Source: a virus
Length of the DNA: 64,000 bases
Virus record (IMG/VR): IMGVR_UViG_3300021091_000016
Direction: 5' to 3' (one strand)
The translations under genes and the position numbers were made by a program. The first letter of the stretch is position 1. Each line of letters starts with the position of its first letter. The notes beneath the pieces were generated by a model. It ran no database searches. It was not told where the DNA came from and saw nothing but the letters and a program-made list of their open reading frames with translations. Below are positions 902 to 50,219 of this stretch, piece by piece.

Positions 902-2542
902 ATGAGTAATGTAAATTATGATAGTAATAGCGAATCAAGGTTTAACTTTATGCATGAACTACCATATATACTTATAGATAAATCTCAATTAGTTCCTCTT
1001 CCTGGCAATTCTTATCATCTAGAAATTAATAAAAGTACATTAGTAGAAACTGCTGGCTTGGTAACAGAGCAAGAAATTTATACAAATATATTCGCTTATT
1101 GTTTTAAAGATGGATCATCTGTACTTCCTTTCGGTGTTATATGCTCCGTAAATGAACAAAAACTGTGCGACGGGAAACTAAGCTTATACTTTAGCTGTAT
1201 AAGAAAAATTGAATCAATAGAAAAGAAATCTGATAGTAAATGTACTTTTTATATGTCAAAAACAACTCTTAAAAAGGACTCCTATCAATTTGTTAAATTA
1301 TTTTTAGAGAATGCGCAGAAAAATCCCAATTTAAAAGACGTGATTGACACAAACGGTTCAATATTCTCAGATATTGTAAATGTCAATCGCTGCCTAGATA
1401 TCATGGAACCTGATAAAGATTTATTAATTAGGTATTTAAGTAGTTCTTCATGGTTCGAAAAGCTATGTGTTGCCGAATATATTCTTTCAGAATACAACTT
1501 AAAATTCGAAACAAATACAACGTACAAAAAAGTAATCAAACAAGATTCTCCTGTATCTGAAAAGATACTAATGGAAAAGAAAAGATTGAGCTCTATACCT
1601 CAATCATCTGCAGAACATGCAGCGACTCAAGATTACTTGCAAATATTAGAAAGCTTACCATTCGGTAAAGAAAATGAAGAAACTATTAATGTAGAAAATA
1701 TTAAGAAAGAACTTAATGAATCTCATTATGGTTTGGAAAAAATTAAAGACGAAATACTAGATTTCTATGCCTTAAAGCAATTGACAGGTGTAGAAGCCTC
1801 TAGTCCTTTTCTCTTAAGTGGGCCTCCAGGTACTGGTAAAACTACAATAGTTAAAGCTATTGCAAAGGCTACAGGTAGAGACTTTATCTCTATTGCTTTG
1901 GGTGGTGTATCTGACGAATCAGAATTTCGTGGACATAGACGCACATATGTAGGCGCTAGACCTGGTAGAATTATTAGCGCACTATCAAAATGTAAATCAA
2001 TGAATCCTATTATCCTACTAGACGAAATTGATAAAATTTCTACTAACGGAAACAAAGGAGACCCATTTGGTGCTTTGTTGGAAATTCTAGACCCAGAACA
2101 AAACAAAGCATTCATTGATAGATTCTTAGAAATTCCTATCGATTTATCTAAATGTACATTCTTTTGTACTGCAAATGATACAAATTATATTCCATTAGCA
2201 GTGATGGACAGATTAGATGAAATAAAATTTGTTGATTATACATCTGAACAAAAAACGCACATTATTAAGAATTACATATTCAATAAAATTAAAACCAATT
2301 ATAATATGTCAAAATACGATATCGAACTAGAGGAAAAGCTAATTAATTTTCTTGCTTGTGAGTATAATTTGCGTAAAATTAATAGAGAGATAGAACGTAT
2401 TTTTAGAAAAAGTGCCTCTAAAATCCTATCAGGAAAATCCGTTAGCTTAGTAACTATGGATGATTATGATGACATGGATACAGAGGATATACCTATTCAA
2501 AAACATAATTCAAATAAAAAGAAAATCGGTTTTTACTTATGA
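902..2542 (+). CDS. lon: Lon-family AAA+ ATPase lacking the C-terminal Ser-Lys protease domain
   Basis: HYGLEKIKDEIL, GPPGTGKT, LGGVSDESEFRGHRRTYVGARPGRII, LLDEIDK, ALLEILDPEQN; ends at 546 aa (..KKKIGFYL) with no protease domain. Confidence 0.9.
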   Translation: MSNVNYDSNSESRFNFMHELPYILIDKSQLVPLPGNSYHLEINKSTLVETAGLVTEQEIYTNIFAYCFKDGSSVLPFGVICSVNEQKLCDGKLSLYFSCIRKIESIEKKSDSKCTFYMSKTTLKKDSYQFVKLFLENAQKNPNLKDVIDTNGSIFSDIVNVNRCLDIMEPDKDLLIRYLSSSSWFEKLCVAEYILSEYNLKFETNTTYKKVIKQDSPVSEKILMEKKRLSSIPQSSAEHAATQDYLQILESLPFGKENEETINVENIKKELNESHYGLEKIKDEILDFYALKQLTGVEASSPFLLSGPPGTGKTTIVKAIAKATGRDFISIALGGVSDESEFRGHRRTYVGARPGRIISALSKCKSMNPIILLDEIDKISTNGNKGDPFGALLEILDPEQNKAFIDRFLEIPIDLSKCTFFCTANDTNYIPLAVMDRLDEIKFVDYTSEQKTHIIKNYIFNKIKTNYNMSKYDIELEEKLINFLACEYNLRKINREIERIFRKSASKILSGKSVSLVTMDDYDDMDTEDIPIQKHNSNKKKIGFYL

Positions 2543-2775
2543 AATTAATATGCTTAGATGTAGATAACTGTGGATATTCCACAATGTCAATAACAGATAA
2601 TTTAGAATACAATATAGATATAAACCAAAACGTTCAAATGTGCCCTGAATGTAAAGACAGTTTAGCTATGTTAGTAGATGATTTCTTTCATTTTGATACT
2701 CTACATCCAGCAGAAAGAAAAAGAATTCAAATTTTAGAATTTGTAAAAGCCTTAGAGGAAAAAATAAAATTGTAA
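2539..2775 (+). CDS. small putative Zn-ribbon protein
   Basis: CLDVDNC...CPEC; ATGA overlap with upstream gene. Confidence 0.55.
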   Translation: MKLICLDVDNCGYSTMSITDNLEYNIDINQNVQMCPECKDSLAMLVDDFFHFDTLHPAERKRIQILEFVKALEEKIKL

Positions 2776-2799: not shown

Positions 2800-3606
2800 T
2801 TGGAATTTGAAAGCTTTAGCCTTGACGAAGCGTATGATGAGAACCATATAAACTCGTATAAAAAAATAGTATCATTATTAAACAAAATAGATGATAAAAT
2901 TATGAATTATAAATTTATATTATCTGGCGGATTTTTAATTTTTCATATGCTTGAAACACATAACGAAAATCGTAAATACAACGATATAGATTTATTTTTC
3001 GAATCAAAAGAAGACTTCAATAAATTAAATTCATATTTATTAGAGTCTTTCGCTAACAAACAAATTGTATACACAGAATACAAAACAAACAATGCAAACA
3101 CTTATTCCTTTCAAATTGATTCCAAGGATGTCAAGCTTCAATTAATTCAAAGTATTTTTGAATCAAAGGAAAAAACCATAGCTTCCTTTGATTTACAAAA
3201 TTGTCAAATTGCTTTAGATAATAAAGGCGAACTATGTATGAATAAAGATTTTGAGAATCTTTATTGGCGAAAAGAATTAAGAGTAAACAAGCTTGTAATC
3301 AAATATTTAGAGGAACGCGGCCCTGGTTATCTATTTACCTTACTGAATAGATTTAAAAAATATCAATGGAGATATAATTTAATAAATTTAAATGAATCTA
3401 CCATTAAGATAATAGAACAAATAGAACAAGATTATTCTCAAGAGATAACAAAAGATAAAACTATAACATGTGTGATTACAACATCCGGAGAATCAGAAGA
3501 AGAGATTACAAAAAATCTTTTTGAAGAATGGACTAGCTTCTTTATTGCATTCTTTAAAGAATATGTAAAAGAAAGCAACTGGATTATAACTAAAACTCAG
3601 CTTTAA
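2800..3606 (+). CDS. pol-beta-superfamily nucleotidyltransferase (phage poly(A) polymerase/CCA-head-like)
   Basis: LSGGFL...NDIDLFF...LQLI...SFDLQNCQ; TTG start with AGGAG SD. Confidence 0.7.
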   Translation: MEFESFSLDEAYDENHINSYKKIVSLLNKIDDKIMNYKFILSGGFLIFHMLETHNENRKYNDIDLFFESKEDFNKLNSYLLESFANKQIVYTEYKTNNANTYSFQIDSKDVKLQLIQSIFESKEKTIASFDLQNCQIALDNKGELCMNKDFENLYWRKELRVNKLVIKYLEERGPGYLFTLLNRFKKYQWRYNLINLNESTIKIIEQIEQDYSQEITKDKTITCVITTSGESEEEITKNLFEEWTSFFIAFFKEYVKESNWIITKTQL

Positions 3607-3624: not shown

Positions 3625-6600
3625 ATGATTATCTCCATTCCAAACAAAACTACCTGTATGCCAAAGGAAAAATATGAGCTATTAACAAGCCTTAATAGCT
3701 ATGGTTCACTTAGCAACGAATTCTTAAATGAATTAGAGCAACAAAAGGTTTACAAAATCGATAATGTAAACTCTGTTATCAGTTCAATTGACAGAAGATA
3801 TGCTCTATCAAAAAACTTATTTAACAATTTGACTTATAAATCAAGACTTAGAAATCAATTGTTTTATCAACAGAATAATGCCTATTTAAATAAATTCTTG
3901 ACTGTTTTTATAGTTGAAAATTGGCATGACAAAAACCAAACATACTTAATTGAAAATATAGTTGCTAACTCTTGTACCCCATTTAAAAATCCTTTCATTC
4001 GTAACTTTAATGAATCTAACTTAATGAGATTGCCTAATCATCTATCAGATCAATATGCTAATTGTAATGGCTTAGAAATTAAAGACATCTATAATATGTG
4101 GCGTGCCTCTGATTCCCCAGATGAATTCAATGAAGTGCTTAAGCAATTAGCAAATGAAAATAAAATTAATCCATTTTATATTTATGCTAATGCAAGTGAG
4201 GAAACGATTCGTCAATTAATTGACGAATCAAATTCAGTTACAAAATCTAATATGAGATCAGATACAATCAGCACTTCAGATGTAAAGAGTATCATAAATA
4301 GTGGGGTGCTTGGTTTAAAATATCTCTCTAATTTTATTTATGCATATTTATTATGTATCACTAAAGATTCGTTATTACTAGATGTAGAAAATGAATTGCT
4401 GACTACTAATAATGGAGAGTATAATTTTATAAATTTACTTTTTGATTTTTCTGGAATGAATCAAAATACAATTATGGGTGACCAATTCTCTATTACTTCT
4501 ATGAACTTTGACGGATTTAAATATAGTCCAATTTCAAGCACAGAAGAAAAACAGTACAAGCTTATTAAAAAATATCATCAATATAAAGTCAGCAATGCAA
4601 AGCAAATTGCAACTCAGAATGAACTTCCAGTATTTTCATGCTTTCCAAAAGAGTGGCTAGATTCTATTGGAATTAATTATTTTGAAAATAATATCAAGGT
4701 AGAACCCTCTCTACCTATAGGCTTTGTATACACTAAGCTCGACAATTATATGTTTAATGTTACAGAGACATCTACCTTAGGTGATTTTTCATTTGTAGGA
4801 GATTATACCTTATCTAAGGTTAAAGCTAAAAATGAAATCGTTAATCTTGTAAACGATAGTCAAAAATCCGTAATTGAAATAGTTGAAAGTGCTTTCAACT
4901 TCGAAGTTGAAAAGATTAATTTAAAGGAAGCATTTTTACAAACACTCACATTTACTAATAATAAGATTAAAGCATTAGTGCTTAACAATTTTACTTCTGG
5001 TTCTCAACCATTCAATATGGAAGTAAAACAACTAACAAAAAATCAATTGATTCAATCAAACAATGCATTCGTACCAATTGCATTCAAAACAACAAAGATA
5101 AATCAATTCACAGGCGAAAAAGAAGAAATTTATTTTGTAAGCTTAGTTAACTTCCAGCCATTAAGTAGCTTTAGAAAATATACAAAATCTCAAAGATATC
5201 TCCAATATCTGAATAATTTGATTGAGTATGATTCTATTCAAGACCCATCTATTTATGACCAAATTCTTGTTAAAAGATTTGGAAATACAATTAAATACAA
5301 TTTAGCAAATCAAGAAGTATACGAAAGCTTTGGAGAGGATTTCGTTATGAAAATAACTGAGCAAGACGTAAAAGAAATGCAGGTTATTGATAATGAAAAA
5401 CTAGCTTTTTTAAATGGTAGTTTGAATATAGATGAAAAGTTAATTACTAAATTCAAAGCCTTAAAAGATAAACAAGATATAATCTTAGCTAAATACACTG
5501 AAGAAGATAAAAGACTTACTGATTTAATTGATTCAAGCATTTTAAATGACAGATATATTGAAGATGATAAAATTCAATTACAATCAATTACAGCTAGATT
5601 GAATGAAAGACTTCAACTAAAGGAAACATTTCCTACAAAAATTCAATTACAAGAAAAAGTATCCAGTGACCAAAGAGCTTTATTCGAATCAATCTCTAAA
5701 GAAGTACAAAAGCTAAATGAAATTCAAATAGAAGCTAAAAGAGATGCAATTGAAAATAAAAATTATATTCCCGATAGTTTTTTTACTGGGTTAAAAACAA
5801 GAGGTATTTACATTCAAGAAATTGAGTATCTGGATCAAAATCAAAATACTTTTAAATTTAACGCTAAGAACTTTAATAAGTTGAGTCTTGATAACATTCA
5901 AGATTTCACTCTAAGCTCTTTAAGTTTTATCGTTAACAAACCATTTAAGATTAAAGTAGATGGAGATGCTGCAAATATCATTTACGCAGGACCAATGAAG
6001 GTTCAAATAACAAATTCAAGTATCTCTGTTGGTGCTTTAAATTCATCTACTATCTTAGGCTTTCTTGATAATAGAAACGCAATGGTACATCCACATTCAT
6101 CTCCTATGAATTTGAGTAGCAATTTTGTAGCAACCGAATTCTTTTCATATAGAAGGGGATGCTTAGGCGAATCATCACCATATATTTACAATGCATTTAG
6201 CTCTACGTCTCCTTTAAAGAATGTTTTAGTAAATGCATTCATTTGGTTATCTAGTGCAAATAGTTCAGATCATTGGGGCAGAAATTACAAATTCTTCCCA
6301 AGATATGGCAGTACATCACTAGTTAACCTAGAAGAGGAAGCAATTAACTTAATTACCATCAATGAATATATTGAATCAGAGGAACCATTATTAAAACCTA
6401 AAAAACAATGTGAACATGAATATGAAAATTCTATATGTATTCATTGTGGATTAGAATGTGTTGACCATAATTACGATTACGATGGTATTTGTACTATATG
6501 TGGGCATTACAATTCACGTTATGATGATTCAGATGAAGAAGATGAAATCTATGACGAAGAGATAACACCAGAACAAGTAAATACAGCTCCAAATGTATAT

Positions 6601-6636
6601 ACACCCTACTCTCCATTAACAAACAATAATAACTAA
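3625..6636 (+). CDS. large protein with coiled coil, C-terminal prokaryotic E2-like (Ubl-conjugating) domain and Cys/His Zn knuckles
   Basis: H822-P-H824 ... G-C846-LG...W...N..D.WG pattern typical of bacterial E2-like folds; directly upstream of JAB, E1 and Ubl; tail CEHEYENSICIHCG/CVDHNYDYDGICTICG. Confidence 0.65.
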   Translation: MIISIPNKTTCMPKEKYELLTSLNSYGSLSNEFLNELEQQKVYKIDNVNSVISSIDRRYALSKNLFNNLTYKSRLRNQLFYQQNNAYLNKFLTVFIVENWHDKNQTYLIENIVANSCTPFKNPFIRNFNESNLMRLPNHLSDQYANCNGLEIKDIYNMWRASDSPDEFNEVLKQLANENKINPFYIYANASEETIRQLIDESNSVTKSNMRSDTISTSDVKSIINSGVLGLKYLSNFIYAYLLCITKDSLLLDVENELLTTNNGEYNFINLLFDFSGMNQNTIMGDQFSITSMNFDGFKYSPISSTEEKQYKLIKKYHQYKVSNAKQIATQNELPVFSCFPKEWLDSIGINYFENNIKVEPSLPIGFVYTKLDNYMFNVTETSTLGDFSFVGDYTLSKVKAKNEIVNLVNDSQKSVIEIVESAFNFEVEKINLKEAFLQTLTFTNNKIKALVLNNFTSGSQPFNMEVKQLTKNQLIQSNNAFVPIAFKTTKINQFTGEKEEIYFVSLVNFQPLSSFRKYTKSQRYLQYLNNLIEYDSIQDPSIYDQILVKRFGNTIKYNLANQEVYESFGEDFVMKITEQDVKEMQVIDNEKLAFLNGSLNIDEKLITKFKALKDKQDIILAKYTEEDKRLTDLIDSSILNDRYIEDDKIQLQSITARLNERLQLKETFPTKIQLQEKVSSDQRALFESISKEVQKLNEIQIEAKRDAIENKNYIPDSFFTGLKTRGIYIQEIEYLDQNQNTFKFNAKNFNKLSLDNIQDFTLSSLSFIVNKPFKIKVDGDAANIIYAGPMKVQITNSSISVGALNSSTILGFLDNRNAMVHPHSSPMNLSSNFVATEFFSYRRGCLGESSPYIYNAFSSTSPLKNVLVNAFIWLSSANSSDHWGRNYKFFPRYGSTSLVNLEEEAINLITINEYIESEEPLLKPKKQCEHEYENSICIHCGLECVDHNYDYDGICTICGHYNSRYDDSDEEDEIYDEEITPEQVNTAPNVYTPYSPLTNNNN

Positions 6637-6647
6637 GGATTAAAGAT

Positions 6648-7772
6648 ATGAAATCTGTAAATTCATTTAAAATCTTAACACAATCATCTGTAGAACCTTT
6701 TATCTCTATGGATTATGATTTAATGCAACAAATTCAACATATTGTTGAAATCGCACCAAAAGAAGCTCAATGGTTTCATCTAATGGAACAAATTGATTCA
6801 GCAGAATTTAGAATCTCAGAGATGTTTATTCCAGAACAAATCTGTAGTTCCGTAGAAGTAGATACTGATAGTCAAATGATGGTACGCTTTTGGAATGAAC
6901 TAAAAGAAAAATATGGCGTAGTAGAAGCCTCTAATAAGTTAACTGTAATGACTGTTTGGTGTCACAGTCATCACAATATGGCGCCTAGTCCTAGCGCTCA
7001 AGATAATACTCAATTCTATCAATTAGTTAAACAACAGAAGGATGCTGGGACTAATAAACCAGTACTTATGTTTATCTTTAATAAACGTAATGAATATTAT
7101 TCTAGATTATGGGATCCAAAAACTAATTTAGTATATGAAGGCTTAGATATCGTTTATACTCATTACGATATGTCTTGGATTGACGCAGAAGCTAAAAAGA
7201 AATTTAAAGAACCACCAATCGTACCTAAGAGTTTTTTAGGTACAACTCCAGCAAATACAAAAGCAACATCTTATTATTGGACGAATCCATTAAAAGATGT
7301 ACCAGCATATAGCTATACTGGAAAAGCAAATGGCAATCATTTAACTGCAAGCACATCATCAAAAATGGCTATTTCAGATTGTTTTGGAGTGACTTACAAT
7401 GAATTCAATGTAATCACCCAACCAATGGCAGATGAATTTGCAAGCTATGTTTCAGATGAATTAGAATCTCAAGAAAAATATATTTTGGCTTCGTTATTAA
7501 GAAAAGATAAAAACTTTTACAATAAAGCTTTAGAAGCAAAGAATAAGAAAATCGCTCCTAAACCATTCAAAGAAACAATTATCAAAGCTATTACCTCTAA
7601 TAAAATGACAATTGGATTACTAGAATGCATTTTGACAAATGTATTTGAAATGTATGACCAATTATTAATAGAGGATAAAGAAAGCTTTGATGTCTGGACA
7701 ACAGATGTTATCGATATGATGGAAGAAACACTAACAGAACCAAAACCTCAATATACCTTGTTCTCTAAATAA
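6648..7772 (+). CDS. JAB/JAMM (MPN+) metalloprotease, putative Ubl-processing/deconjugating enzyme
   Basis: PKEAQW (E39) and WCHSHHNMAPSPSAQD = H106-x-H108-x7-S116-xx-D119. Confidence 0.88.
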   Translation: MKSVNSFKILTQSSVEPFISMDYDLMQQIQHIVEIAPKEAQWFHLMEQIDSAEFRISEMFIPEQICSSVEVDTDSQMMVRFWNELKEKYGVVEASNKLTVMTVWCHSHHNMAPSPSAQDNTQFYQLVKQQKDAGTNKPVLMFIFNKRNEYYSRLWDPKTNLVYEGLDIVYTHYDMSWIDAEAKKKFKEPPIVPKSFLGTTPANTKATSYYWTNPLKDVPAYSYTGKANGNHLTASTSSKMAISDCFGVTYNEFNVITQPMADEFASYVSDELESQEKYILASLLRKDKNFYNKALEAKNKKIAPKPFKETIIKAITSNKMTIGLLECILTNVFEMYDQLLIEDKESFDVWTTDVIDMMEETLTEPKPQYTLFSK

Positions 7773-7781
7773 AGGATAAAA

Positions 7782-8471
7782 ATGTCTGTATCATTTCTTA
7801 GACACAGTGCATTCTTTGGGCCAGAGGATGCAAATCAATATGTATTAAATATCATTGGAGTAGGTGCAACAGGCTCTTGGATTGCTATGCTAGCTGCCAG
7901 AATGGGTTGGCACAAGTTTAGAGTATGGGATTTAGATATTGTAGAATCTCACAATTTACCTAATCAAGCATATACCCATGATGATATTGGTAAGAAAAAA
8001 GTAATCGCGCTTAAGGAACAACTACTTAGATTCAATCCAGAAATTGAAATTGAAACACATGATTATTTCTTTGAATCAGAAAAGCATAAAGAATTACTAG
8101 ACGGGCCAGTTATCATTACTGTTGATTCACTATCTGCAAGAAAGGATATTGCAGAAGCAATTAAAGGTAATTGGAATGTCATGCATGCATTTGAAACTCG
8201 TATGGGATTTACTCATGCAGAAATCAATTACCTAGATTGTTTAAACATCCAATCAGTAGAAAACTTTCAAAACTTACTTAAAAGCGATTCTGAAGTAACT
8301 GAAGCTGCATGTAATGAAAGAATTATCACAACTCTCACTTGCCAAGTTGCAGCAACTGTGGTACATTATTTATGTGCTTTAGTTACCAAAGATAGAAACA
8401 AGAACGAAGTACAAATTAGAAACAAAACTATTTTTACAAATACACCCACACTTTCCGTGTTTGGTATGTAG
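7782..8471 (+). CDS. ThiF/MoeB/E1-like adenylyltransferase (Ubl-activating enzyme)
   Basis: IIGVGATGS, DLDIVESHNLPNQ, DIGKKKV, VDSLSARK, ETRMG; candidate catalytic C177 (AAC). Confidence 0.92.
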   Translation: MSVSFLRHSAFFGPEDANQYVLNIIGVGATGSWIAMLAARMGWHKFRVWDLDIVESHNLPNQAYTHDDIGKKKVIALKEQLLRFNPEIEIETHDYFFESEKHKELLDGPVIITVDSLSARKDIAEAIKGNWNVMHAFETRMGFTHAEINYLDCLNIQSVENFQNLLKSDSEVTEAACNERIITTLTCQVAATVVHYLCALVTKDRNKNEVQIRNKTIFTNTPTLSVFGM

Positions 8472-8480
8472 GAGAAACAA

Positions 8481-8708
8481 ATGCAAGAACAAGAGTTCAA
8501 ATTACAAGATGAATTAACTCAATTGAGTCAAACATTAGCAGCCTTGCAAATTGATGCTCAGAAGTTTGATGATGGTAATGGTGCGGCTGGTAGACGTGCT
8601 AGGTCTTACTTAGCAAGTTTAAGAACAAGTATGCAGTCATTGCGTTTCAAGATTCAAGAAGTAAAAAATCAAAGAATTGCACAAAAGAAAACCCAAGTTA
8701 CTGAATAA
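8481..8708 (+). CDS. histone H1-like Hc1-family small helical protein
   Basis: DAQKFDDGNGAAGRRARSYL...LRFKIQEVKN resembles the Hc1-like consensus. Confidence 0.7.
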   Translation: MQEQEFKLQDELTQLSQTLAALQIDAQKFDDGNGAAGRRARSYLASLRTSMQSLRFKIQEVKNQRIAQKKTQVTE

Positions 8709-8717
8709 GGAAATAAA

Positions 8718-8933
8718 ATGAGAAACATTACATTAGTAATCGTGCCAGGCACAGGCGCAAAACAAATCCAGGTAGAAGACACAATGACCGTAGCAGAGCT
8801 TGTTGCTCGTGAATCTCTATTTGGTAGAGACATCATTGTAAATGGTGTTGGAGTACAAGCCACACAATTTAATACTCAAACCTTAGCAGGTGCAATTGAA
8901 GTATTTGCTACAGGGAGTGTTAAGGGCAATTAA
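8718..8933 (+). CDS. single ubiquitin-like (beta-grasp) protein
   Basis: 71 aa, beta-grasp-type pattern (TMTVAEL, IIVNG), ends FATGSVKG-N; downstream of E1/JAB. Confidence 0.82.
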   Translation: MRNITLVIVPGTGAKQIQVEDTMTVAELVARESLFGRDIIVNGVGVQATQFNTQTLAGAIEVFATGSVKGN

Positions 8934-9083
8934 ATGGATTGGTGGAATAAAAATTCTGACGATCCAATTATTAATCTAATAGTAGGTGTTGGATTTATTA
9001 TCTATGCAATCATTGTAAGCCTATATAATCCGCTATATCTTATTATTTATTGCTTATTAACTATAATTTACTATTTGATTTAA
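8934..9083 (+). CDS. 49-aa hydrophobic membrane peptide (not in ORF track)
   Basis: Starts right after the Ubl stop; MDWWNKNSDDPIINLIVGVGFIIYAIIVSLYNPLYLIIYCLLTIIYYLI. Confidence 0.5.
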   Translation: MDWWNKNSDDPIINLIVGVGFIIYAIIVSLYNPLYLIIYCLLTIIYYLI

Positions 9084-9136
9084 AAGATAAAAAATAAAAA
9101 GATTTAATCGATTACCTAATACAAAAGGATAATCTT

Positions 9137-9550
9137 ATGTCTACAACAGTAATTGTTATCAAAGGCAACTCTTCTCAAAGCTTATTAAATAGAATTGCAC
9201 AAGCTTTAACAGATGAAGATAGAAATGCTCAAACTACAGAAATCAAACAAAATCTAGTAAGAGCTTTTTCAGATGCAACTCAATTAAAAACAGAAGAAAA
9301 TAAAAAAGAACGCAAAAAGCATGAAATGACTTATAGATTTGATTCAAATCAAGAAAAGCTAGTAAGGGCGTTTATCAATAAGAACCCAAGCTTTACTTTT
9401 AATCAAGTCTGTAACTTTTTAAGGAATGCAGGATATGAAAAGGTATATTTCAGAGATTTAAAAATTTGTTTAACAAAGTTTAATGCTACCTGTAGTATCG
9501 ATTCAATAACCAGAAAGCATACCTGGATTGTAAAAAATGTCAGAAAATAG
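9137..9550 (+). CDS. hypothetical basic protein, possible winged-helix DNA-binding C-terminus
   Basis: 137-aa ORF with AAGGA SD; function inferred only. Confidence 0.55.
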   Translation: MSTTVIVIKGNSSQSLLNRIAQALTDEDRNAQTTEIKQNLVRAFSDATQLKTEENKKERKKHEMTYRFDSNQEKLVRAFINKNPSFTFNQVCNFLRNAGYEKVYFRDLKICLTKFNATCSIDSITRKHTWIVKNVRK

Positions 9551-9623
9551 TTAAATATTTCTGTCATTTTTGACACTTTTTTTCATGTCATTTTTGACAT
9601 TAATTTTTAACCAAAAAATAACA
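9538..9623. promoter_or_regulatory. array of TGTCA-N4-TGACA palindromes at 24-bp period (copy 1)
   Basis: Perfect boxes at 9562 and 9586; degenerate boxes at 9538 and 9610; inverted counterpart at 45166-45251. Confidence 0.7.
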
Positions 9624-9691
9624 CTTTTAAAGATAATAAGAACAAAAATCTAAAGAATTGTAAGAGTCTAACAAATTTTAGGAGAATTTAT

Positions 9692-10558
9692 ATGACTACA
9701 CGTAATCTTACCCTCGTTGTTGTCCCTGGTACTGGCGCACGTTCTATCTCTGTAGATACTACTATGACCGTTGCTGATCTAGTTTGTCGTGAGAATTTAC
9801 ACGGTAGAGATATCATTATTAACGGTGTTGGTGTCAATCCACAATCCTGGAATACCACAACACTTCAAGATGCAGTAGAAGTATTTGCAACTGGTAGTGT
9901 TAAAGGTAATGTTGATAGAACTGTAACTTTAGTAGTAGTTCCAGGTACAGGTGCTAGACAAACAACAATTCCTTCTCAAATGACCGTAGCAGATTTTGTT
10001 TGTAGAGAGAATCTCCATGGCCGTGATATTATTATTAACGGTGTAGGTTGCGCACCAACACAATGGAATACTACAACTTTAGATGAAGCTGTTGAGATTT
10101 TCGCAACAGGCTCTGTGAAAGGTAATGTTCCACAAACTGGAGTACTTGTTGTAGTTCCTGGAACTGGAGCAAGACAAGTAAGCTTTGATTCAGAATCTAC
10201 AATTGCTGATTTCGTATGTGCTAATAATCTACATGGTAGAGATATCATTTTAGATGGCGTTGGCGTTAGTCCTACACAATGGAATAGTACTCAATTAGGT
10301 CAAGCAAGAGAAATCTTTGCAACCGGCAGTGTGAAGGGTAATGCTACTCGTACTGCAACATTAGTTGTTGTGCCAGGTACTGGTGCAAGACAGGTACAAA
10401 TTGATACAGAAATGACTGTAGCTGATTTTGTATGTCGTGAGAACTTACATGGACGTGACATTATTCTTAATGGCGTAGGTGTAGCTCCACAGCAATGGAA
10501 TCAGACAACACTAAATGACACTGTAGAAATCTTTGCTACAGGTTCTGTTAAAGGTAAT
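9692..10558 (+). repeat. four in-frame ~216-bp tandem Ubl-coding repeats
   Basis: Units 9692-9910, 9911-10126, 10127-10342, 10343-10558; conserved motifs use different synonymous codons. Confidence 0.92.
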
Positions 10559-10843
10559 GGCGCTGAAGGGTTTATTGAAGTGACTTATGGAAATGATGCA
10601 AAAACTTGCTTTAAGAGCTTAGTAGATACAGCTATTTACAAGCATGGTCATAATCCTTATAGCGGTACTATTGCTACTGTATCAAGCTTTAAACTTGAAG
10701 AAACAGAGTTTCAAAATGAAGAAGCTGCATTGGCTTATGCAGATGATAAAATCGAGGACTTAGAGAAAAGAGAATGCAGAGCAGTAAGCTTTGTAGAAAA
10801 TAACAAAAGAGGCTTTGTCTTTTATGGTTGGGCTGCCTGTTAA
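9692..10843 (+). CDS. tetra-ubiquitin-like polyprotein (4 Ubl repeats) fused to a 94-aa C-terminal domain
   Basis: Four 72-73 aa repeats each ending FATGSVKGN, paralogous to 8718..8933, then GAEGF...YSGTIAT...FYGWAAC. Confidence 0.85.
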   Translation: MTTRNLTLVVVPGTGARSISVDTTMTVADLVCRENLHGRDIIINGVGVNPQSWNTTTLQDAVEVFATGSVKGNVDRTVTLVVVPGTGARQTTIPSQMTVADFVCRENLHGRDIIINGVGCAPTQWNTTTLDEAVEIFATGSVKGNVPQTGVLVVVPGTGARQVSFDSESTIADFVCANNLHGRDIILDGVGVSPTQWNSTQLGQAREIFATGSVKGNATRTATLVVVPGTGARQVQIDTEMTVADFVCRENLHGRDIILNGVGVAPQQWNQTTLNDTVEIFATGSVKGNGAEGFIEVTYGNDAKTCFKSLVDTAIYKHGHNPYSGTIATVSSFKLEETEFQNEEAALAYADDKIEDLEKRECRAVSFVENNKRGFVFYGWAAC

Positions 10844-22081: not shown

Positions 22082-24568
22082 ATGAATATAGATGAGTTTG
22101 CACAAAGACTTGCAGAACAAACAAAAGTATTAAAACAAAATCTAATTAAAGATTTAAATGAATCTGAAACTTTAAGTGAGCTTAGAGATAGTATTCAAAA
22201 GAATTTAATTGCAGATATTAATGACGAATCGTTTTCTGATTTATTTGCGCAAACCATTTCTTATTCAATGTTTGCTGCAAAACAGATTTATAACGAATCA
22301 AATAAAGATTCAGATAAATTTACATTTGAGGATATTATTTTTTATATGCCTCAATCTAATCCATTCTTAAAACAATTCTTTTATATTTTAGAAGAGAATA
22401 GTAAAATCTTAAATCAAAATATTTTTGATTCAATTAATCAGATATTTAATTTAGTTAAAGAAAATGATTTATCAATTACAGAACATCAACGTGGTGATTT
22501 GCTAATTCATTTTTATGAAGATTTTTTACAATACTATTCACCTGAAACAAGAAAGAATCTTGGAGTATGGTACACTCCAGAACCAATCGTAGATTACATG
22601 ATTGATATGTCACAATTGTTTTTAAAAGATAAATTAAATATTAATGGTGGTTTTTTAAACAATGAATATTGTGACGAAAAATATAGTAAAGTTCAAGTAT
22701 TAGATCCTGCAACTGGTACTGGTAATTTTCTAGTAAGAATTGCAACAAGAATTTGCGATTCAATTGAAAATAGTAAAAAACGTTTTGAATATATTAGAGA
22801 TCATTTAATTAATAAACTAAATGGCTTTGAATTATTAATGACGTCTTATACTATTGCTAATTTTAAATTAGATCAGTTATTTAGACACTATGGTTACAAA
22901 GTAAAAACTAGTAATGGTCGCCAAAGAACAAACATATACTTAACTAATACCTTAGATAAAGTTTCAGTAAATGAAATTTTACTTGAAAAAGATAACTTTG
23001 TAGGTTTACTTGCAAGAGAAACTGAAGGAGCTAATCAAGTAAAAGAAAATAAACCAGTATTTGTTGTAATTGGTAACCCACCATACAACCGTAATAGTAA
23101 AAACAACTCTAAATTTATTACTGATTTAATGCAAACGTATAAAGCAGATTTCAATACCGCTGGTGGTTTAAATGACGATTATATTAAATTCTTTAGATAC
23201 GCTCATGATTTAATTAGTAGGCAAGAAACAGGTTTAATTTCATTTATTACTAGTAATAGCTTTATCAAATCTCAGGCTTGTCAACAAATGAGAGTTTCGC
23301 TTCTGAAAGATTTTGATGAAATTTATATTTTAAATTTAAACGGTGATAAAACAAAAGAAGATAAAAACGTTTTTGATATCAAAACGAATGTATGTATCAC
23401 TTTTTTAATCAAAACAGGATTAAAAGAAAAGTATGATTTTGGAGAAGTATTCTATGCAGATTTAATTGGTAGTAAGTGGTTCAAATTTCAATGTTTACAA
23501 AATAAAGATATTCATTTTCAAAAGCTAACACTTGAAGCACCTAATTATTTCTTTATTCCTTTAGATAATGAATTATTAAAAATTTATAATGAAGGATTTT
23601 CGCTAGGAGATATATTTAAAGTTAAAGGTGCTGGAGTACTAACAGCAACTGATGAATTATTAGTAAATACTAAACTCGATAAATTAAAATCAAATATCAA
23701 GCTTCATTTAGAATCACAGAATAGTCCATTTAAAGGAGTCTCTCTAAACAAAAAAGAAAAAGACGCAAATGGTACCTACAAGACTTTTGCTTATAGACCA
23801 TTTGATAATCGTTATTATTATGATTCAAAGATGACAGAAGGAAAAAGATTAGAGCTTGTAAAGCATGAATCAATTCAAGATAATTTCTATTTTAATTTCA
23901 CTGCATCAGTAAGAGATAGTAGTGATTTTAAACATGTTGTACTTACAAAAGGTACTCCAGAGTTTGCTTTTTTTACAGGAAAAGCAAACACGCATTCTGC
24001 ACCACTATATATCTATAACGAACAAAATAAAGTAGAATCTAATATAAAAGAATCATTTATAAAAGAAATAAATGATTGTCTAGGCGATACAGAAATAGAA
24101 GCAAAACATATTATGGACTATATATATGGTTATTTAAATATGCCTAGTTATGTAGAGAAGTTCAATGGTTTACTTAAACAGAATTATCCAAGAGTACCAT
24201 ATCCAAAAGACTATGATGAGTTTTATAGAATAGCTAATATTGGCGCGCAACTAAGACAACATCATTTGTTCTCTTTCGAAATAGACTCTTTTGAAATAGA
24301 AACGACTGTGTTTGCAAATGTAAAGTTTCCATGCAAAATAAATGTCAATAATAAGCTAGAAATTAATGTCATTAATGACATTAATTTTCAATTAAAAAAT
24401 GACATTTGGGAATTCAAGATTGGTGCCTGTCAGATTTTAAAGAACTGGATTAAAGCTAGAGTAAATGAAGAAATTACATTTGAAGAGTTTTTGCATTTTC
24501 TAAAAATGATTAATGCAATCGAAGAAACTATTAAACTTAGAAATAAGCTTAATGAAACAAAGGATTAA
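22082..24568 (+). CDS. N6-adenine DNA methyltransferase with type ISP/IIG-like C-terminal target-recognition domain
   Basis: GVWYTP, VLDPATGTGNFL, IGNPPY, DDYIKFFR, YRPFD. Confidence 0.88.
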   Translation: MNIDEFAQRLAEQTKVLKQNLIKDLNESETLSELRDSIQKNLIADINDESFSDLFAQTISYSMFAAKQIYNESNKDSDKFTFEDIIFYMPQSNPFLKQFFYILEENSKILNQNIFDSINQIFNLVKENDLSITEHQRGDLLIHFYEDFLQYYSPETRKNLGVWYTPEPIVDYMIDMSQLFLKDKLNINGGFLNNEYCDEKYSKVQVLDPATGTGNFLVRIATRICDSIENSKKRFEYIRDHLINKLNGFELLMTSYTIANFKLDQLFRHYGYKVKTSNGRQRTNIYLTNTLDKVSVNEILLEKDNFVGLLARETEGANQVKENKPVFVVIGNPPYNRNSKNNSKFITDLMQTYKADFNTAGGLNDDYIKFFRYAHDLISRQETGLISFITSNSFIKSQACQQMRVSLLKDFDEIYILNLNGDKTKEDKNVFDIKTNVCITFLIKTGLKEKYDFGEVFYADLIGSKWFKFQCLQNKDIHFQKLTLEAPNYFFIPLDNELLKIYNEGFSLGDIFKVKGAGVLTATDELLVNTKLDKLKSNIKLHLESQNSPFKGVSLNKKEKDANGTYKTFAYRPFDNRYYYDSKMTEGKRLELVKHESIQDNFYFNFTASVRDSSDFKHVVLTKGTPEFAFFTGKANTHSAPLYIYNEQNKVESNIKESFIKEINDCLGDTEIEAKHIMDYIYGYLNMPSYVEKFNGLLKQNYPRVPYPKDYDEFYRIANIGAQLRQHHLFSFEIDSFEIETTVFANVKFPCKINVNNKLEINVINDINFQLKNDIWEFKIGACQILKNWIKARVNEEITFEEFLHFLKMINAIEETIKLRNKLNETKD

Positions 24569-24570
24569 AA

Positions 24571-25197
24571 ATGGCAATTAAAAAACTAACTGGTATTCCA
24601 GAAATTGATGCAATTGCATCAGCCTTTACTAAGAAATATGGTAAAGAAGAAATTCTATCTATGGGCCCTAAGTACGAGAAAGTAGAGCCTATTTCTACTG
24701 GCTCTGTATCTTTAGATGCTGTACTTGGTATTGGTGGCGTACCAGATGATAGAGTAATTGAAATATTCGGTCCACCTTCTGCTGGTAAAACATCCTTATG
24801 TTTGCAGATTGTACGTAATTATGTTCAAGCAAAAGGATATACAAAGCCACCAGTATGGATCGACTTAGAAAGAACTACAGGTTTAGATCTTGTAGAATCT
24901 ATGGGTTTAGATCCAGATAAAATGATTTTTGTTTATCCAGATACGGCAGAGGAAGCATTACAACTAGCACAAGACTTAGGCAAGACTGGTAAAGTTGGTG
25001 TTGTAGTATTTGATAGTATTGATGCCGCACAATCAGAAAAAGAAACCAAACGTAATATGAACGAGGTTGGCGTTGCTGATTTGCCAAGACTACTGTCTAA
25101 AGCCTTACGTTCTATTAGTAAAATCAGTGTAGATAATAAAGTCTGTTATTTGTTTATTAATCAAGTGCGTACTAATATTGGCGTCATGTATGGAAAT
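24571..25197 (+). CDS. recA: RecA recombinase, exon 1
   Basis: ISTGSVSLDAVLGIGG, EIFGPPSAGKT, FINQVRTNIGVMYGN. Confidence 0.93.
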
Positions 25198-38106: not shown

Positions 38107-38107
38107 A

Positions 38108-49155: not shown

Positions 49156-49570
49156 GTCTACCTGGAAAAATCAATTCCATATATATGAATCTGCTTCTGA
49201 CTTTCATAATAAAGTCAGAGAGATATTTGCCACAGATAATTATTTTAAGCAAATCCAATGCTTTCAAGAAGTACCTGTATCAAATTTAGTTTCAGATTAT
49301 AAAAACAATATGGAAGCGGTTGACTGGTATATCGATTCTTTAAATGTAGTAATCGAGCTGCATGGCGAGCAACATTACAAAGCTACAGGATTTGGTAACG
49401 AGTCGTATAATGAAAAGCTTGTTAATTTCAATAATATACGTTATAGAGATAATAAAAAGAAGACAGCGTTAATAGAAAGTGGATATACTTATATAGAAAT
49501 TCCGTATAAGTTAAAATCTAAATTGACTGCTGAATTTATAAAAGAATTAATCTATAGCTATGGAGAATGA
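49136..49570 (+). CDS. Vsr/DUF559-like endonuclease
   Basis: VDWYI...IELHGEQHY...RDNKKK...IEIPY. Confidence 0.75.
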   Translation: MAPGSNRSTWKNQFHIYESASDFHNKVREIFATDNYFKQIQCFQEVPVSNLVSDYKNNMEAVDWYIDSLNVVIELHGEQHYKATGFGNESYNEKLVNFNNIRYRDNKKKTALIESGYTYIEIPYKLKSKLTAEFIKELIYSYGE

Positions 49571-49571
49571 C

Positions 49572-50219
49572 ATGAGCGATTTAAAAGCTTTAGAGGATTT
49601 ATTAAAATCTGATGAATCTGAATTTAAACATTTTTGGGGACCTGCAGATATTAAGTACTTTGGTTCTAGTAATCGAACAATTGCTTTTTTTGAAGGTATC
49701 GAAAAAGAATCAGCATTAGTTTTAATATCTCAGTTATATGAATTAGATAAGTTTTCTGACGAACCTATCTATCTAATTCTAAATACAGAAGGTGGAGACG
49801 TAGATTCGTCCTTAGCAATACTAGATTGTATTAAAGGCTTAAACTCTCCAGTAATTTGTTTAGCTACTGGGATTTGTGCTTCTGGTGGATTGATAGTACT
49901 TTCTGCTTGTGATTACAGAATTGCAACAGAAAACTGTTTATTCTTTTATCATCAGCCAATAATGTCTAGTATAGATGTAACCTCTACTAGTGAAATTAAA
50001 TCGGTAGATACTCTTTACACTTATTACCAAATCAAATTAGATCAAATACTTAAAGACAAGTCTAAAATGAATAAAAAGAAATGGTCTGAAAGCTTTGAAG
50101 GCAAGACATCTTTCTATTTTGATGCAAATCAAGCTTTAGACTTTGGGCTTATAGATTTGATTGACATACCTCCTCCAAAAACTCAAAAGATTAAAATTAA
50201 AAGGATTAAAAAGAAATGA
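49572..50219 (+). CDS. clpP: ClpP-family protease subunit
   Basis: LNTEGGDV, GICASGG (catalytic Ser), FYHQP (His), ALDFGLID. Confidence 0.85.
   Translation: MSDLKALEDLLKSDESEFKHFWGPADIKYFGSSNRTIAFFEGIEKESALVLISQLYELDKFSDEPIYLILNTEGGDVDSSLAILDCIKGLNSPVICLATGICASGGLIVLSACDYRIATENCLFFYHQPIMSSIDVTSTSEIKSVDTLYTYYQIKLDQILKDKSKMNKKKWSESFEGKTSFYFDANQALDFGLIDLIDIPPPKTQKIKIKRIKKK

What the first reader, a model, noticed from the sequence alone, without database searches (positions are those of the whole stretch)
3625..10843. Apparently complete phage-encoded ubiquitin-like conjugation system (E2-JAB-E1-Ubl-polyUbl)
Seen: one co-oriented, tightly packed cluster encodes a 1003-aa protein with HPH(822-824)...GC846LG, a JAMM protease (E39, H106xH108, S116, D119), a ThiF/E1 (GxGxxG, C177), a 71-aa Ubl ending VKG-N, and a four-Ubl polyprotein. 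Established: E1+E2+JAB+Ubl is the minimal set for Ubl-protein conjugation, as in bacterial Bil/Bub-type operons and the CBASS Cap2/Cap3 enzymes, usually described on the host side as anti-phage defence; the residue after the terminal Gly requires JAB trimming. Inference: here the phage itself carries the pathway. It may tag host or phage proteins for degradation or assembly, or counter host Ubl-based defence. No ThiG/MoaE sulfur-transfer partners are in the window, which favours protein conjugation.
Basis: partly seen in the sequence, partly recalled or inferred. Interest (0 to 1): 0.93.

Follow-up and report, generated by a model that had tools for sequence, protein, structure and literature searches.

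The report
Phage-encoded ubiquitin-like tagging operon
An uncultured ~150-kb lake-water phage, and a whole clade of its relatives, carries its own ubiquitin-like protein, polyubiquitin-style precursors, an activating enzyme, a trimming protease and a large protein with a probable E2-like core; such a set has so far been described only in cells and eukaryotic viruses, and its targets are unknown.

Summary
The cluster lies in a phage and keeps its gene order in 8 further phage loci.

**Solid**
- A JAMM/JAB peptidase with an invariant E...HxHx7Sx2D motif.
- A minimal 229-aa ThiF-type E1, with an invariant GxGxxG motif and invariant Cys177.
- Poly-Ubl precursors of 0 to 4 units. Each unit is under purifying selection, and some are fused to a small cargo domain.

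**Weaker**
- HPH822-824, C846 and D882 are invariant in 154 diverged homologues.

**Context and open points**
- Relatives that are 79-87% complete encode no canonical E2, ThiG, MoaE or rhodanese.
- The Asn after the terminal Gly is invariant in all 25 Ubl units, which is unexplained.
- The E1 family lacks the canonical Arg of the NLxRQ motif.
- Conjugation itself is inferred, not shown.
- No description of a phage system of this kind turned up in the paper library.
- Other readers of this scan had already flagged this same stretch.

The parts
902..2542 (+). Lon-type AAA+ ATPase (546 aa) with no protease domain, ending ...KKKIGFYL. It is the first gene of the co-oriented block. Its link to the Ubl genes rests on position only.
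   Evidence: NCBIfam lon TIGR00763 E 7.7e-103, covering model positions 266-590 of 795. Pfam AAA E 8e-26. C-terminus read. Present upstream in most related loci, but no match within the flank of L007.
2539..2775 (+). 78-aa small protein with four Cys. Function unknown.
   Evidence: No family hit. Conserved in L001, L004, L008 and L011.
2800..3606 (+). 268-aa nucleotidyltransferase-fold protein, possibly Gad2-like (anti-Gabija). It is a conserved neighbour; whether it belongs to the Ubl system is unknown.
   Evidence: The sequence carries a GG...DID motif. PHROG nucleotidyltransferase E 5e-4. PADLOC AbiEii E 4e-3. ESM Atlas feature score 0.96 to Gad2 (PF26128) clusters. No Pfam hit in the local copy, which does not hold PF26128.
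3625..6636 (+). 1003-aa protein. It has a poorly conserved N-terminal region of ~700 aa, a helical stretch, a UBC-like domain, an acidic tail with a lineage-specific CxxC knuckle, and a short aromatic C-terminal motif.
   Evidence: No Pfam, PHROG, PADLOC or NCBIfam hit. Homologues are 650-1150 aa with the conserved domain near the C-terminus. CxxC is present in 19 of 138 homologues; the acidic tail ends in [YF]x[PRK][YFI] in 84 of 138.
5770..6324 (+). Putative E2-like (UBC/RWD-superfamily) catalytic domain, residues ~716-900, with invariant HPH822-824, C846, G848, D882 and W884-G885.
6648..7772 (+). JAMM/JAB metallopeptidase (374 aa). The JAB domain is residues 1-~180; the C-terminal extension varies between phages.
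   Evidence: Pfam Prok-JAB E 1.3e-5, 25.5 bits against a cutoff of 25. PADLOC JAB E 6.6e-6. E39 and HSHx7Sx2D are invariant in 7 phages.
7782..8471 (+). Minimal ThiF/MoeB-type E1 adenylation domain (229 aa) with invariant C177. The canonical NLxRQ motif reads NLPNQ.
   Evidence: Pfam ThiF E 5.9e-24. NCBIfam short ThiF E 4.4e-23, below that model's cutoff. PADLOC Cap2 E1-E2 E 1.2e-13. Alignment of 7 phage E1s.
8481..8708 (+). [quoted passage not shown]
   Evidence: Pfam Hc1 E 1.1e-11, 44.8 bits against a cutoff of 23.5. Present at the same position in L001, L004, L005, L007 and L011.
8718..8933 (+). Stand-alone Ubl (71 aa) ending ...FATGSVKG-N-stop. This is the universally conserved Ubl gene of the module.
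   Evidence: Present next to the E1 in all 9 loci. The fold was modelled on the homologous fourth poly-Ubl unit.
9562..9599 (.). Two TGTCA-N4-TGACA palindromes 24 bp apart, upstream of the poly-Ubl gene. The same box pair lies upstream of the primase-helicase gene.
   Evidence: 5 exact matches in the window against 0.1 expected. Sequence read.
9692..10558 (+). Four head-to-tail Ubl units, each ending GSVKG-N.
10559..10843 (+). 94-aa cargo domain (strand-helix-strand-helix-strand-strand) fused after the last Ubl unit. In other phages it is a separate gene.
   Evidence: Secondary structure from the model. The homologue is a separate ORF in L005 (12979-13278) and L007 (13438-13794). Its fold was not assigned.
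49560..50219 (+). ClpP-family protease, ~39 kb downstream. It is a possible partner of the IGF-tailed Lon ATPase. This is speculative; it is listed for context.
   Evidence: Pfam CLP_protease E 2.2e-23. A ClpP is present in 5 of 5 related phage records.

Best explanation
This is a self-contained Ubl activation, processing and transfer module encoded by the phage and expressed alongside its replication genes.

Proposed steps:
1. The JAB metallopeptidase cuts the Ubl precursors at the conserved ...SVKG-N junction. The precursors are the solo Ubl with a one-residue cap, the 2-4-unit poly-Ubl, and the Ubl-cargo fusions. This releases many identical Ubl monomers plus the cargo domain.
2. The minimal ThiF-type E1, probably a homodimer, adenylates the exposed C-terminus. 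It probably holds the Ubl as a thioester on its invariant Cys177.
3. The Ubl passes to the invariant Cys846 of the UBC-like domain of the ~1000-aa protein.
4. That protein's large, fast-evolving N-terminal region selects targets, so it would act as an E2/E3 hybrid attaching the Ubl to host or phage proteins.
5. The JAB may also reverse the conjugates.

Shown here: the domain identities, the catalytic motifs, the conservation and the precursor architecture. Inferred: every chemical step, the targets, and any coupling to the neighbouring Lon-type unfoldase and the phage ClpP.
For: The genome is a phage: it has ribonucleotide reductase, a split DNA polymerase, primase-helicase and structural-protein hits. 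It has IMG/VR relatives and occurs in lake-water metagenomes.

The order big protein, JAB, E1, Ubl is kept in 9 of 9 loci, down to 49% E1 identity.

The JAB motif is invariant. The E1 matches Pfam ThiF at 5.9e-24, with invariant GxGxxG, the Asp of VDSLSAR, and C177.

Poly-Ubl units are kept intact, with dN/dS of 0.11-0.32. Copy number varies from 0 to 4 between phages, and tails or cargo follow the junction. This is the logic of polyubiquitin and ubiquitin-fusion genes. It points to stoichiometric use of the Ubl rather than catalytic use.

The big protein's C-terminal domain gives a confident model. Its top-50 structural neighbours are about 39 E2/UEV/RWD chains, including the bacterial BubCD-BubB entry 9eav_D and the Bil E1-E2-Ubl entry 8tyz_C. 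HPH, C, D and WG are invariant in 154 sequences. The order strand, HPH, loop, Cys, helices parallels the UBC layout.

Relatives that are 79-87% complete contain no canonical E2 and no ThiG above cutoff, MoaE or rhodanese. The ThiF positive control was found in 5 of 5.

Against: The E1 family has NLPNQ where E1s have NLxRQ, so one canonical ATP-contacting Arg is missing.

By sequence, the E1 and Ubl are nearest to ThiF and ThiS.

The residue after the Gly is an invariant Asn in 25 of 25 units. A simple trimmed cap does not explain this.

Gene order is conserved across the whole region as far as the ribonucleotide reductase gene. Synteny alone therefore does not tie the AAA+ protein, the nucleotidyltransferase-fold protein or even the big protein functionally to the Ubl genes.

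There are no expression or biochemical data. No RNA-holding run was listed.
Confidence: 0.55

Rival explanations
1. The system is real Ubl tagging but needs no E2. The E1 transfers the Ubl directly, as in the archaeal SAMP/UbaA and Thermus TtuB/TtuC systems. The 1003-aa protein would then be something else: a Cys-His-Asp peptidase or isopeptidase, a ligase of another kind, a Ubl-binding RWD/UEV-like adaptor, or the main substrate.
Against: The invariant Cys and HPH argue against a purely non-catalytic RWD or UEV module. No papain-like or NlpC/P60 fold appears among the top 50 structural matches. The gene lies directly upstream of the JAB and E1 genes in 9 of 9 loci.
Confidence: 0.2
2. This is a sulfur-carrier pathway. 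The ThiS-like Ubl is matured by the JAB, as with CysO/Mec+ or QbsE/QbsD. The ThiF-like E1 adenylates and thiocarboxylates it. The sulfur is donated to a cofactor, tRNA or DNA modification made with host enzymes.
For: The best sequence matches of the E1 are to short ThiF (NCBIfam PRK08644, E 4.4e-23), and the poly-Ubl matches thiS (E 2.9e-9). Public sources annotate homologues as 'sulfur carrier protein ThiS'. JAB-matured sulfur carriers exist (PMC1779556).
Against: All of these scores are below the curated cutoffs. Relatives have no ThiG above cutoff, no MoaE and no rhodanese, and a PP-loop ATPase is present in only 1 of 5. Tandem precursors of up to four units, cargo fusions and variable copy number fit a consumed tag better than a recycled carrier. 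The terminus is KG-N rather than GG. The conserved Cys/His protein would have no role.
Confidence: 0.1
3. The mature reactive end is the invariant Asn, not the Gly. The JAB, or Asn cyclisation, would cut after the Asn. The E1-like enzyme would then act on a C-terminal Asn, as MccB does on the microcin C precursor, going through adenylation and a succinimide. This would give an unusual Ubl-nucleotide product or an Asn-linked conjugate.
For: The Asn follows the Gly in 25 of 25 units. Seven of 9 solo Ubls stop exactly after it, whereas whatever follows the Asn elsewhere varies freely. PaaA (E 7.5e-10) and MccB (E 1e-5) are among the E1's PDB sequence matches. The E1 has an altered ATP-site motif.
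Against: The E1 is closer to ThiF than to MccB. At 229 aa it has no room for MccB's N-terminal peptide-clamp domain (my own knowledge of MccB). JAMM enzymes normally need a small residue at P1. The beta-grasp plus a flexible ...KG tail is the standard E1 substrate geometry.
Confidence: 0.07
4. The module is mainly a counter-defence device aimed at host Ubl-based immunity (Bil, type II CBASS, Bub). The phage JAB would strip host Ubl or CD-NTase conjugates, and the phage Ubl and E1 would compete with or poison the host cascade. It would not tag targets of its own.
For: The JAB and E1 match CBASS Cap3 and Cap2 profiles (PADLOC). The adjacent nucleotidyltransferase-fold gene resembles the anti-Gabija protein Gad2 by language-model features, which would suggest an anti-defence neighbourhood. 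Bacterial Ubl systems do target phage proteins (10.1101/2023.09.04.556158).
Against: A deconjugating enzyme alone would be enough for that job. Keeping an E1, one to five Ubl units under purifying selection and a ~1000-aa Cys/His protein across the clade points to a productive pathway. The Gad2 link is an unverified lead.
Confidence: 0.08

Closest known systems
Bacterial Bil (BilABCD) operons
   Same: Both have four separate functions: a Ubl, an E2-type protein, a JAB peptidase and an E1. The Ubl ends in a conserved Gly, sometimes with a short overhang that the peptidase must remove. A thioester cascade through Cys residues is proposed in both.
   Different: Bil is a host defence system. [quoted passage not shown] BilA has two fused beta-grasp domains and is not a cleavable polyprotein. 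The Bil E2 is a small stand-alone UBC protein, whereas here the candidate domain is buried in a ~1000-aa protein and matches no E2 sequence family.
Type II CBASS Cap2/Cap3
   Same: The E1 and JAB domains match the PADLOC Cap2 (E 1.2e-13) and Cap3 (E 6.6e-6) profiles. A nucleotidyltransferase-fold gene lies nearby.
   Different: Cap2 is an E2-E1 fusion, and its substrate is the C-terminus of the CD-NTase, not a Ubl. Here there is a true beta-grasp Ubl, the E1 is separate, and the nucleotidyltransferase-fold protein does not end in Gly.
Bub / 6E operons and the other Ubl operons of Iyer et al. 2006 (PMC1779556)
   Same: These are prokaryotic operons with an E1, an E2, a peptidase and a Ubl. Some have two or three tandem Ubl domains 'reminiscent of poly-ubiquitin'.
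   Different: Bub works through Tyr and Ser oxyesters and has no catalytic Cys (PMC11601596), whereas here both candidate Cys residues are invariant. The tandem Ubl domains in those operons were not described as cleavable repeats that each keep the full C-terminal junction. Those operons are cellular or on integrative elements, not in lytic-type phage replication modules.
Eukaryotic polyubiquitin and ubiquitin-fusion genes (also carried by some eukaryotic viruses)
   Same: Both have head-to-tail units under purifying selection, a cap residue after the last unit, fusion to an unrelated small protein that is released by cleavage, and variable unit number.
   Different: The units here are ThiS/MoaD-like in sequence. 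Every unit, not only the last, is followed by one invariant Asn. The processing enzyme is presumably a JAMM peptidase rather than a Cys deubiquitinase.
ThiS/ThiF, MoaD/MoeB and CysO/Mec+ sulfur-carrier systems
   Same: These give the nearest sequence matches for the E1 and the Ubl. JAB maturation of a capped carrier is known.
   Different: The scores fall below the family cutoffs. The terminus is not GG. No sulfur-acceptor enzymes were found in related phages. The polyprotein precursors and the Cys/His protein have no counterpart there.
Lambda/T1 tail-assembly Ubl (TAPI) with the JAB-NlpC protein TAPK
   Same: This is a phage-encoded beta-grasp protein with a conserved C-terminal Gly next to a JAB peptidase (PMC1779556).
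   Different: That system has no E1 and lies in the tail-gene module. This one has an E1 and lies among replication and nucleotide-metabolism genes.

Membership tests
Ubiquitin-like beta-grasp modifiers (ThiS/MoaD/Ub superfamily) | Beta-grasp fold | tested here: met
Ubiquitin-like beta-grasp modifiers (ThiS/MoaD/Ub superfamily) | Conserved flexible tail ending in Gly that becomes the free C-terminus | tested here: inconclusive
   The tail FATGSVKG is conserved in 25 of 25 units, but it is always followed by Asn. Whether the mature end is Gly or Asn cannot be read from the sequence.
E1 / ThiF-MoeB-Uba adenylation domain | Rossmann-type ATP-binding domain matching the family profile, with GxGxxG | tested here: met
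   Pfam ThiF E 5.9e-24, 85 bits against a cutoff of 28.1. GVGATG is invariant.
E1 / ThiF-MoeB-Uba adenylation domain | Canonical NLxRQ motif with the ATP-contacting Arg | tested here: not met
   All 7 aligned phage E1s read NLPNQ. PaaA and 9egc have R at the aligned position.
E1 / ThiF-MoeB-Uba adenylation domain | Catalytic Cys in the crossover loop | tested here: inconclusive
   C177 is invariant in 7 phages. Its position in the crossover loop was not verified structurally.
JAMM/JAB metallopeptidase | E...HxHx7Sx2D zinc-site motif and a match to the family profile | tested here: met
   E39, H106, H108, S116 and D119 are invariant in 7 phages. Pfam Prok-JAB gives 25.5 bits against a cutoff of 25.
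E2 / UBC superfamily | UBC fold (N-terminal helix, antiparallel sheet, catalytic loop, C-terminal helices) | tested here: inconclusive
E2 / UBC superfamily | HPN-type motif closely followed by the catalytic Cys | tested here: inconclusive
   HPH and Cys are invariant in 154 sequences, but they are separated by a loop of 21-40 residues of variable length. I could not obtain a residue-level superposition.
E2 / UBC superfamily | Match to a curated E2 sequence family (UQ_con, Prok-E2_A/B/D) | tested here: not met
   No Pfam hit even at E <= 10 for 10 members. There was no match in six-frame searches of 5 related phage records. The family profile finds nothing among PDB sequences.
E2 / UBC superfamily | Ubl thioester on the Cys | not testable with these tools
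   This needs biochemistry.
Bil (BilABCD) | [quoted passage not shown] | tested here: not met
   The E1 is 229 aa with a single ThiF domain. The Ubl units are single beta-grasps separated by cleavage junctions. The Bil architecture is taken from PMC11601596.
Type II CBASS (Cap2/Cap3) | E2-E1 fusion protein acting on the C-terminus of a CD-NTase | tested here: not met
   The E1 is a separate 229-aa gene. PADLOC Cap2 profiles match only through their E1 part, and the big protein has no hit. A dedicated Ubl is present.
Bub / 6E | No catalytic Cys: Tyr on the E1 and Ser on the E2 form oxyesters | tested here: not met
   Both candidate residues here are invariant Cys. Bub features are taken from PMC11601596. 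The BubE/DUF6527 protease was not searched for.
ThiS/ThiF or MoaD/MoeB sulfur-carrier pathway | Score above the curated equivalog cutoffs, and a cognate sulfur-acceptor enzyme (ThiG, MoaE) encoded alongside | tested here: not met
   ThiF PRK08644 gives 82 bits against a cutoff of 159, and thiS gives 37.2 against 37.45. In 5 related phage records there is no ThiG above cutoff, no MoaE and no rhodanese. Host-encoded partners cannot be excluded.
Microcin C-type MccB/MccA | Substrate ending in Asn; E1-like enzyme with an N-terminal peptide-clamp domain | tested here: inconclusive
   The terminal Asn is invariant, and MccB is a weak PDB match (E 1e-5). However, the E1 has no N-terminal extension (229 aa), and the substrate is a folded Ubl rather than a short peptide.

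The most novel reading that the evidence does not exclude
These phages bring their own ubiquitin-proteasome-like degradation pathway. Ubl monomers released from polyubiquitin-style precursors would be ligated by an E1 and a giant E2/E3-hybrid onto host, or phage, proteins. The tag would then be read by the operon's protease-less Lon-type unfoldase, whose IGF tail would dock on the phage-encoded ClpP. The invariant terminal Asn may in addition mark a conjugation chemistry that differs from the classical Gly route.
Probability: 0.15. Interest if true: 0.95.

Novelty: new variant of a known kind. Interest (0 to 1): 0.8.

Why it matters
Ubl conjugation in prokaryotes has recently been established as a host weapon against phages, through the Bil, type II CBASS and Bub systems.

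A complete set on the virus side would reverse that picture. The set here is widespread in metagenomes, with 281 clusters of the E2-like protein at the 50%-identity level.

It would give phages the kind of ubiquitin toolkit known from eukaryotic viruses. A 2026 review still lists ubiquitin signalling as an accessory function of giant eukaryotic viruses and not of large phages (PMC13359090).

The polyubiquitin-style and Ubl-fusion precursors are a striking convergence with eukaryotic ubiquitin genes.

The minimal E1, a possible new E2-like family with an HPH...C...D signature, and the invariant Gly-Asn junction are compact, testable biochemistry. They bear on how E1-E2 cascades evolved from ThiF/ThiS.

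Tried and rejected
- IMG/VR and genome-contig loci were used instead.
- **No close DNA relative.** Distant blastn of the cluster against GenBank phages found no match.
- **Other phages with a ThiF-like gene.** Flavobacterium phage FpV4 and Xanthomonas phage PhiXhv-15 have such a gene, but their neighbours show no detectable homology to the Ubl, the JAB or the E2-like domain. They were not pursued.
- **E2-like domain, sequence searches.** There were no Pfam hits for it or for 10 family members at E <= 10. There were no hits among PDB sequences with the family profile. ESM Atlas gave no usable hit.
- **Profile-profile test against known E2s.** I tried to obtain bacterial E2 sequences by finding Cap2-like hits on plasmids. 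The hits turned out to be RiPP/ABC-exporter or stand-alone ThiF contexts without an E2, so I abandoned this.
- **Gad2.** PF26128 is not in the local Pfam copy, so the Gad2 lead for the 268-aa protein could not be checked with an HMM. tblastn found only hypothetical proteins of Bacteroides phages.
- **Expression.** No RNA-holding run was listed, and read laying was not used.
- **Promoters.** The promoter-like scan found fewer sites than in shuffled sequence, so it is uninformative.
- **Cargo domain.** Its fold was not resolved, because the Ubl filled the match list.
- **PDB entries 9egb and 9egc.** These E1-like entries could not be traced to a paper.

Full report
**1. What is there**

The window is AT-rich (about 27-35% GC). 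It carries ribonucleotide reductase, a DNA polymerase split into three ORFs, primase-helicase and structural-protein hits, so it is a large tailed phage. An exact copy of the 1003-aa protein lies on a 152-kb contig. Near-identical DNA is held by lake-water metagenome runs. No cultured relative exists in the GenBank phage set.

The genes in the flagged stretch, all on the + strand:

| Coordinates | Size | Identity |
|---|---|---|
| 3625-6636 | 1003 aa | no family hit |
| 6648-7772 | 374 aa | JAB |
| 7782-8471 | 229 aa | ThiF-type E1 |
| 8481-8708 | 75 aa | Hc1-like |
| 8718-8933 | 71 aa | solo Ubl |
| 9137-9550 | 137 aa | unrelated insert |
| 9692-10843 | 383 aa | four Ubl units plus a 94-aa domain |

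No terminator-like site occurs on the + strand inside the block.

**2. It is a conserved module, not a one-off**

Eight further distinct loci were recovered: six IMG/VR contigs and two contigs binned into MAGs. They keep this order:

- Lon-type AAA+, small Cys protein, nucleotidyltransferase-fold protein, big protein, JAB, E1, (Hc1-like), Ubl, (poly-Ubl), P-loop protein, PhoH, Whirly-like, SpoVG-like ... ribonucleotide reductase.

E1 identity across these loci ranges from 89% down to 49%. A profile of the big protein's conserved domain finds 281 representatives at the 50%-identity level, 252 of them at E <= 1e-10. Among the 150 best hits that were listed, the full-length ones are proteins of about 650-1150 aa with the domain near the C-terminus, and a few are shorter fragments. 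Because the whole region is syntenic, gene order alone does not prove that the flanking genes belong to the Ubl system.

**3. The secure components**

*JAB.*
- Pfam Prok-JAB scores just over its cutoff.
- Several CBASS Cap3-type PADLOC profiles match.
- E39 and H106-S-H108-x7-S116-x2-D119 are invariant in seven phages.
- The C-terminal ~190 aa vary and are absent in two lineages.

*E1.*
- Pfam ThiF gives E 5.9e-24.
- The nearest NCBIfam model is the short ThiF PRK08644, though below its cutoff. The 6A-MBL Cap2 model also matches.
- The nearest solved relatives are PaaA, an uncharacterised ThiF-type protein (9egc), TcdA, UBA5, MccB and Cap2.
- GxGxxG, the Asp of VDSLSAR and Cys177 are invariant.
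- The family uniformly has NLPNQ where E1s have NLxRQ.

*Ubl.*
- An AF2 model of the fourth unit plus the C-terminal domain has pLDDT 89.3.
- Foldseek agrees.
- Some homologues reach Pfam SAMP2 or ThiS.

**4. The precursors**

- Homologues have 2, 3 or 4 units with the same C-terminal domain, 3 units with only a short tail, or one unit fused to a different ~145-aa domain.
- In L005 and L007 the "cargo" domain is a separate gene next to the Ubl genes. L003, L008 and L012 have only the solo Ubl.
- Within the window, the units differ at most synonymous sites (dS above 1) yet have dN/dS of 0.11-0.32. Each unit is therefore maintained.
- This is the design of polyubiquitin and ubiquitin-fusion genes. 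It argues that large amounts of free Ubl are consumed.

**5. The unexplained junction**

All 25 units in 9 loci end (S/A)VKG-N. After the Asn comes a stop (7 of 9 solo Ubls), the next unit, the cargo, or tails of unrelated sequence. In other Ubl systems the cap varies. There are two readings:

- Asn is the JAB's required P1' residue or a one-residue activation lock.
- Asn belongs to the mature reactive end.

The second reading recalls MccB, an E1-like enzyme that acts on a C-terminal Asn. I rate it as a low-probability but open rival.

**6. The "E2"**

- Residues 701-910 gave a confident model (pLDDT 85.7, pTM 0.83).
- Its layout is a helix, a sheet of about 7-8 strands, HPH822-824 directly after a strand, a loop of variable length, C846 at the start of a helix, then three more helices.
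- That enrichment makes a UBC/RWD-like fold likely, but the scores are too low to call it proven.
- In 154 diverged sequences G789, P790, H822, P823, H824, C846, G848, D882, W884 and G885 are 100% conserved. This indicates an active site and not merely a binding module.
- No E2 sequence family matches.
- No canonical E2 is encoded elsewhere in five related phage records, two of them 79% and 87% complete. The ThiF positive control was found in 5 of 5.
- The CxxC knuckle noted by other readers is lineage-specific (19 of 138). An acidic tail ending in a short aromatic motif is commoner (84 of 138).

**7. Context that bears on function**

- The module sits among replication and nucleotide-metabolism genes (PhoH, Whirly-like, SpoVG-like, ribonucleotide reductase), not among tail genes. 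This argues against a lambda TAPI/TAPK-type assembly role.
- Sulfur-acceptor enzymes are absent from relatives, and a PP-loop ATPase occurs in only 1 of 5.
- The first gene of the block is a Lon AAA+ module without a protease domain, ending in IGFYL. A ClpP is encoded at 49560-50219 and in 5 of 5 relatives. That fits a tag, unfoldase and protease scheme, but nothing here links them.
- The 268-aa neighbour has a nucleotidyltransferase motif, and by language-model features it resembles the anti-Gabija protein Gad2 (10.1101/2023.05.01.538930). This is unverified.
- Two TGTCA-N4-TGACA boxes precede the poly-Ubl gene and recur before the primase-helicase gene, with 5 matches against 0.1 expected. 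This suggests shared regulation.

**8. Comparison with known systems, and novelty**

- The logic is that of the Bil, CBASS type II and Bub operons and of the operons in Iyer et al. 2006 (PMC1779556, PMC11601596, 10.1101/2023.09.04.556158). The defining architectures of each are not met (see the membership tests).
- By sequence, the E1 and Ubl are ThiF/ThiS-like.
- Nine literature searches found no description of a phage-encoded E1, JAB, Ubl and poly-Ubl system (including). E1-like genes alone were noted in Asgard viruses (10.1101/2021.07.29.454249). A 2026 review lists ubiquitin signalling only for giant eukaryotic viruses (PMC13359090). The library is not exhaustive.

**9. Verdict**

- A phage Ubl activation and processing module is well supported.
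- An E2-type transfer step is plausible but unproven.
- Conjugation, the targets and the biological role are inferred.

Noticed in passing
window 26953-28212, 29264-30874, 40213-41487: The DNA polymerase is encoded in three separate ORFs, matching PHROG 405 positions 42-442, 441-790 and 790-1045. The third piece lies ~9 kb downstream of the second, with many genes in between.
   Followed up: no
window 24571-25876: A RecA-like gene covers only the N-terminal ~200 residues of the profile. It is followed by a 205-aa ORF with a weak restriction-endonuclease-like hit, so a homing endonuclease may have split the gene.
   Followed up: no
window 8481-8708: A histone-H1-like (Pfam Hc1, E 1.1e-11) basic 75-aa protein is conserved between the E1 and Ubl genes in six of nine loci. 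It could be a DNA-binding regulator or a substrate.
   Followed up: partly
window 9562-9599, 24367-24380, 45190-45227: The palindrome TGTCA-N4-TGACA occurs 5 times against 0.1 expected. It occurs as 24-bp-spaced pairs upstream of the poly-Ubl gene and of the primase-helicase gene, so it is probably an operator or promoter element of a phage regulator.
   Followed up: partly
window 2800-3606: A nucleotidyltransferase-fold protein (GG...DID motif) resembles Gad2 anti-Gabija clusters by ESM Atlas features (score 0.96). It has no hit in the local Pfam copy, and it is conserved just upstream of the big protein.
   Followed up: partly
window 902-2542 and 49560-50219: A Lon AAA+ module without a protease domain ends in ...IGFYL. 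A ClpP-family protease lies ~47 kb downstream, and a ClpP is present in 5 of 5 related phage records.
   Followed up: partly
protein P0052 (890-bp ENA contig): The N-terminal part of a phage capsid protein (Pfam Phage_capsid_3) runs directly into the C-terminal two-thirds of a solo-type Ubl that is identical to the L001 Ubl. This is probably an assembly chimera, but it was not checked.
   Followed up: no
L005 14188-14463; L007 13050-13475: These are additional stand-alone paralogues of the small cargo domain that is fused to the poly-Ubl in the window. The domain forms a small gene family around the Ubl genes.
   Followed up: no
window 8946-9086: A 46-codon ORF encodes a very hydrophobic peptide, probably one or two membrane helices. 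It lies in the gap after the solo Ubl gene.
   Followed up: no
window 38001-40000: This is a local GC-rich island (42% against ~30-34% in the flanks) with reversed GC skew.
   Followed up: no
L011 (CAYOWH010000001.1, 158 kb) and L012 (PBNR01000076.1): Phage contigs carrying the whole module are binned into a Bacteriovoracaceae MAG and a Gammaproteobacteria MAG. This is either mis-binning or a weak hint about the host.
   Followed up: no
L009 (Flavobacterium phage FpV4 gp50) and L010 (Xanthomonas phage PhiXhv-15): Other phage lineages carry ~228-aa ThiF-like genes annotated 'thiamine biosynthesis protein'. In PhiXhv-15 the gene is flanked by an 892-aa ORF and a 70-aa ORF. There is no detectable homology to the module here, but the layout is similar.
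   Followed up: partly
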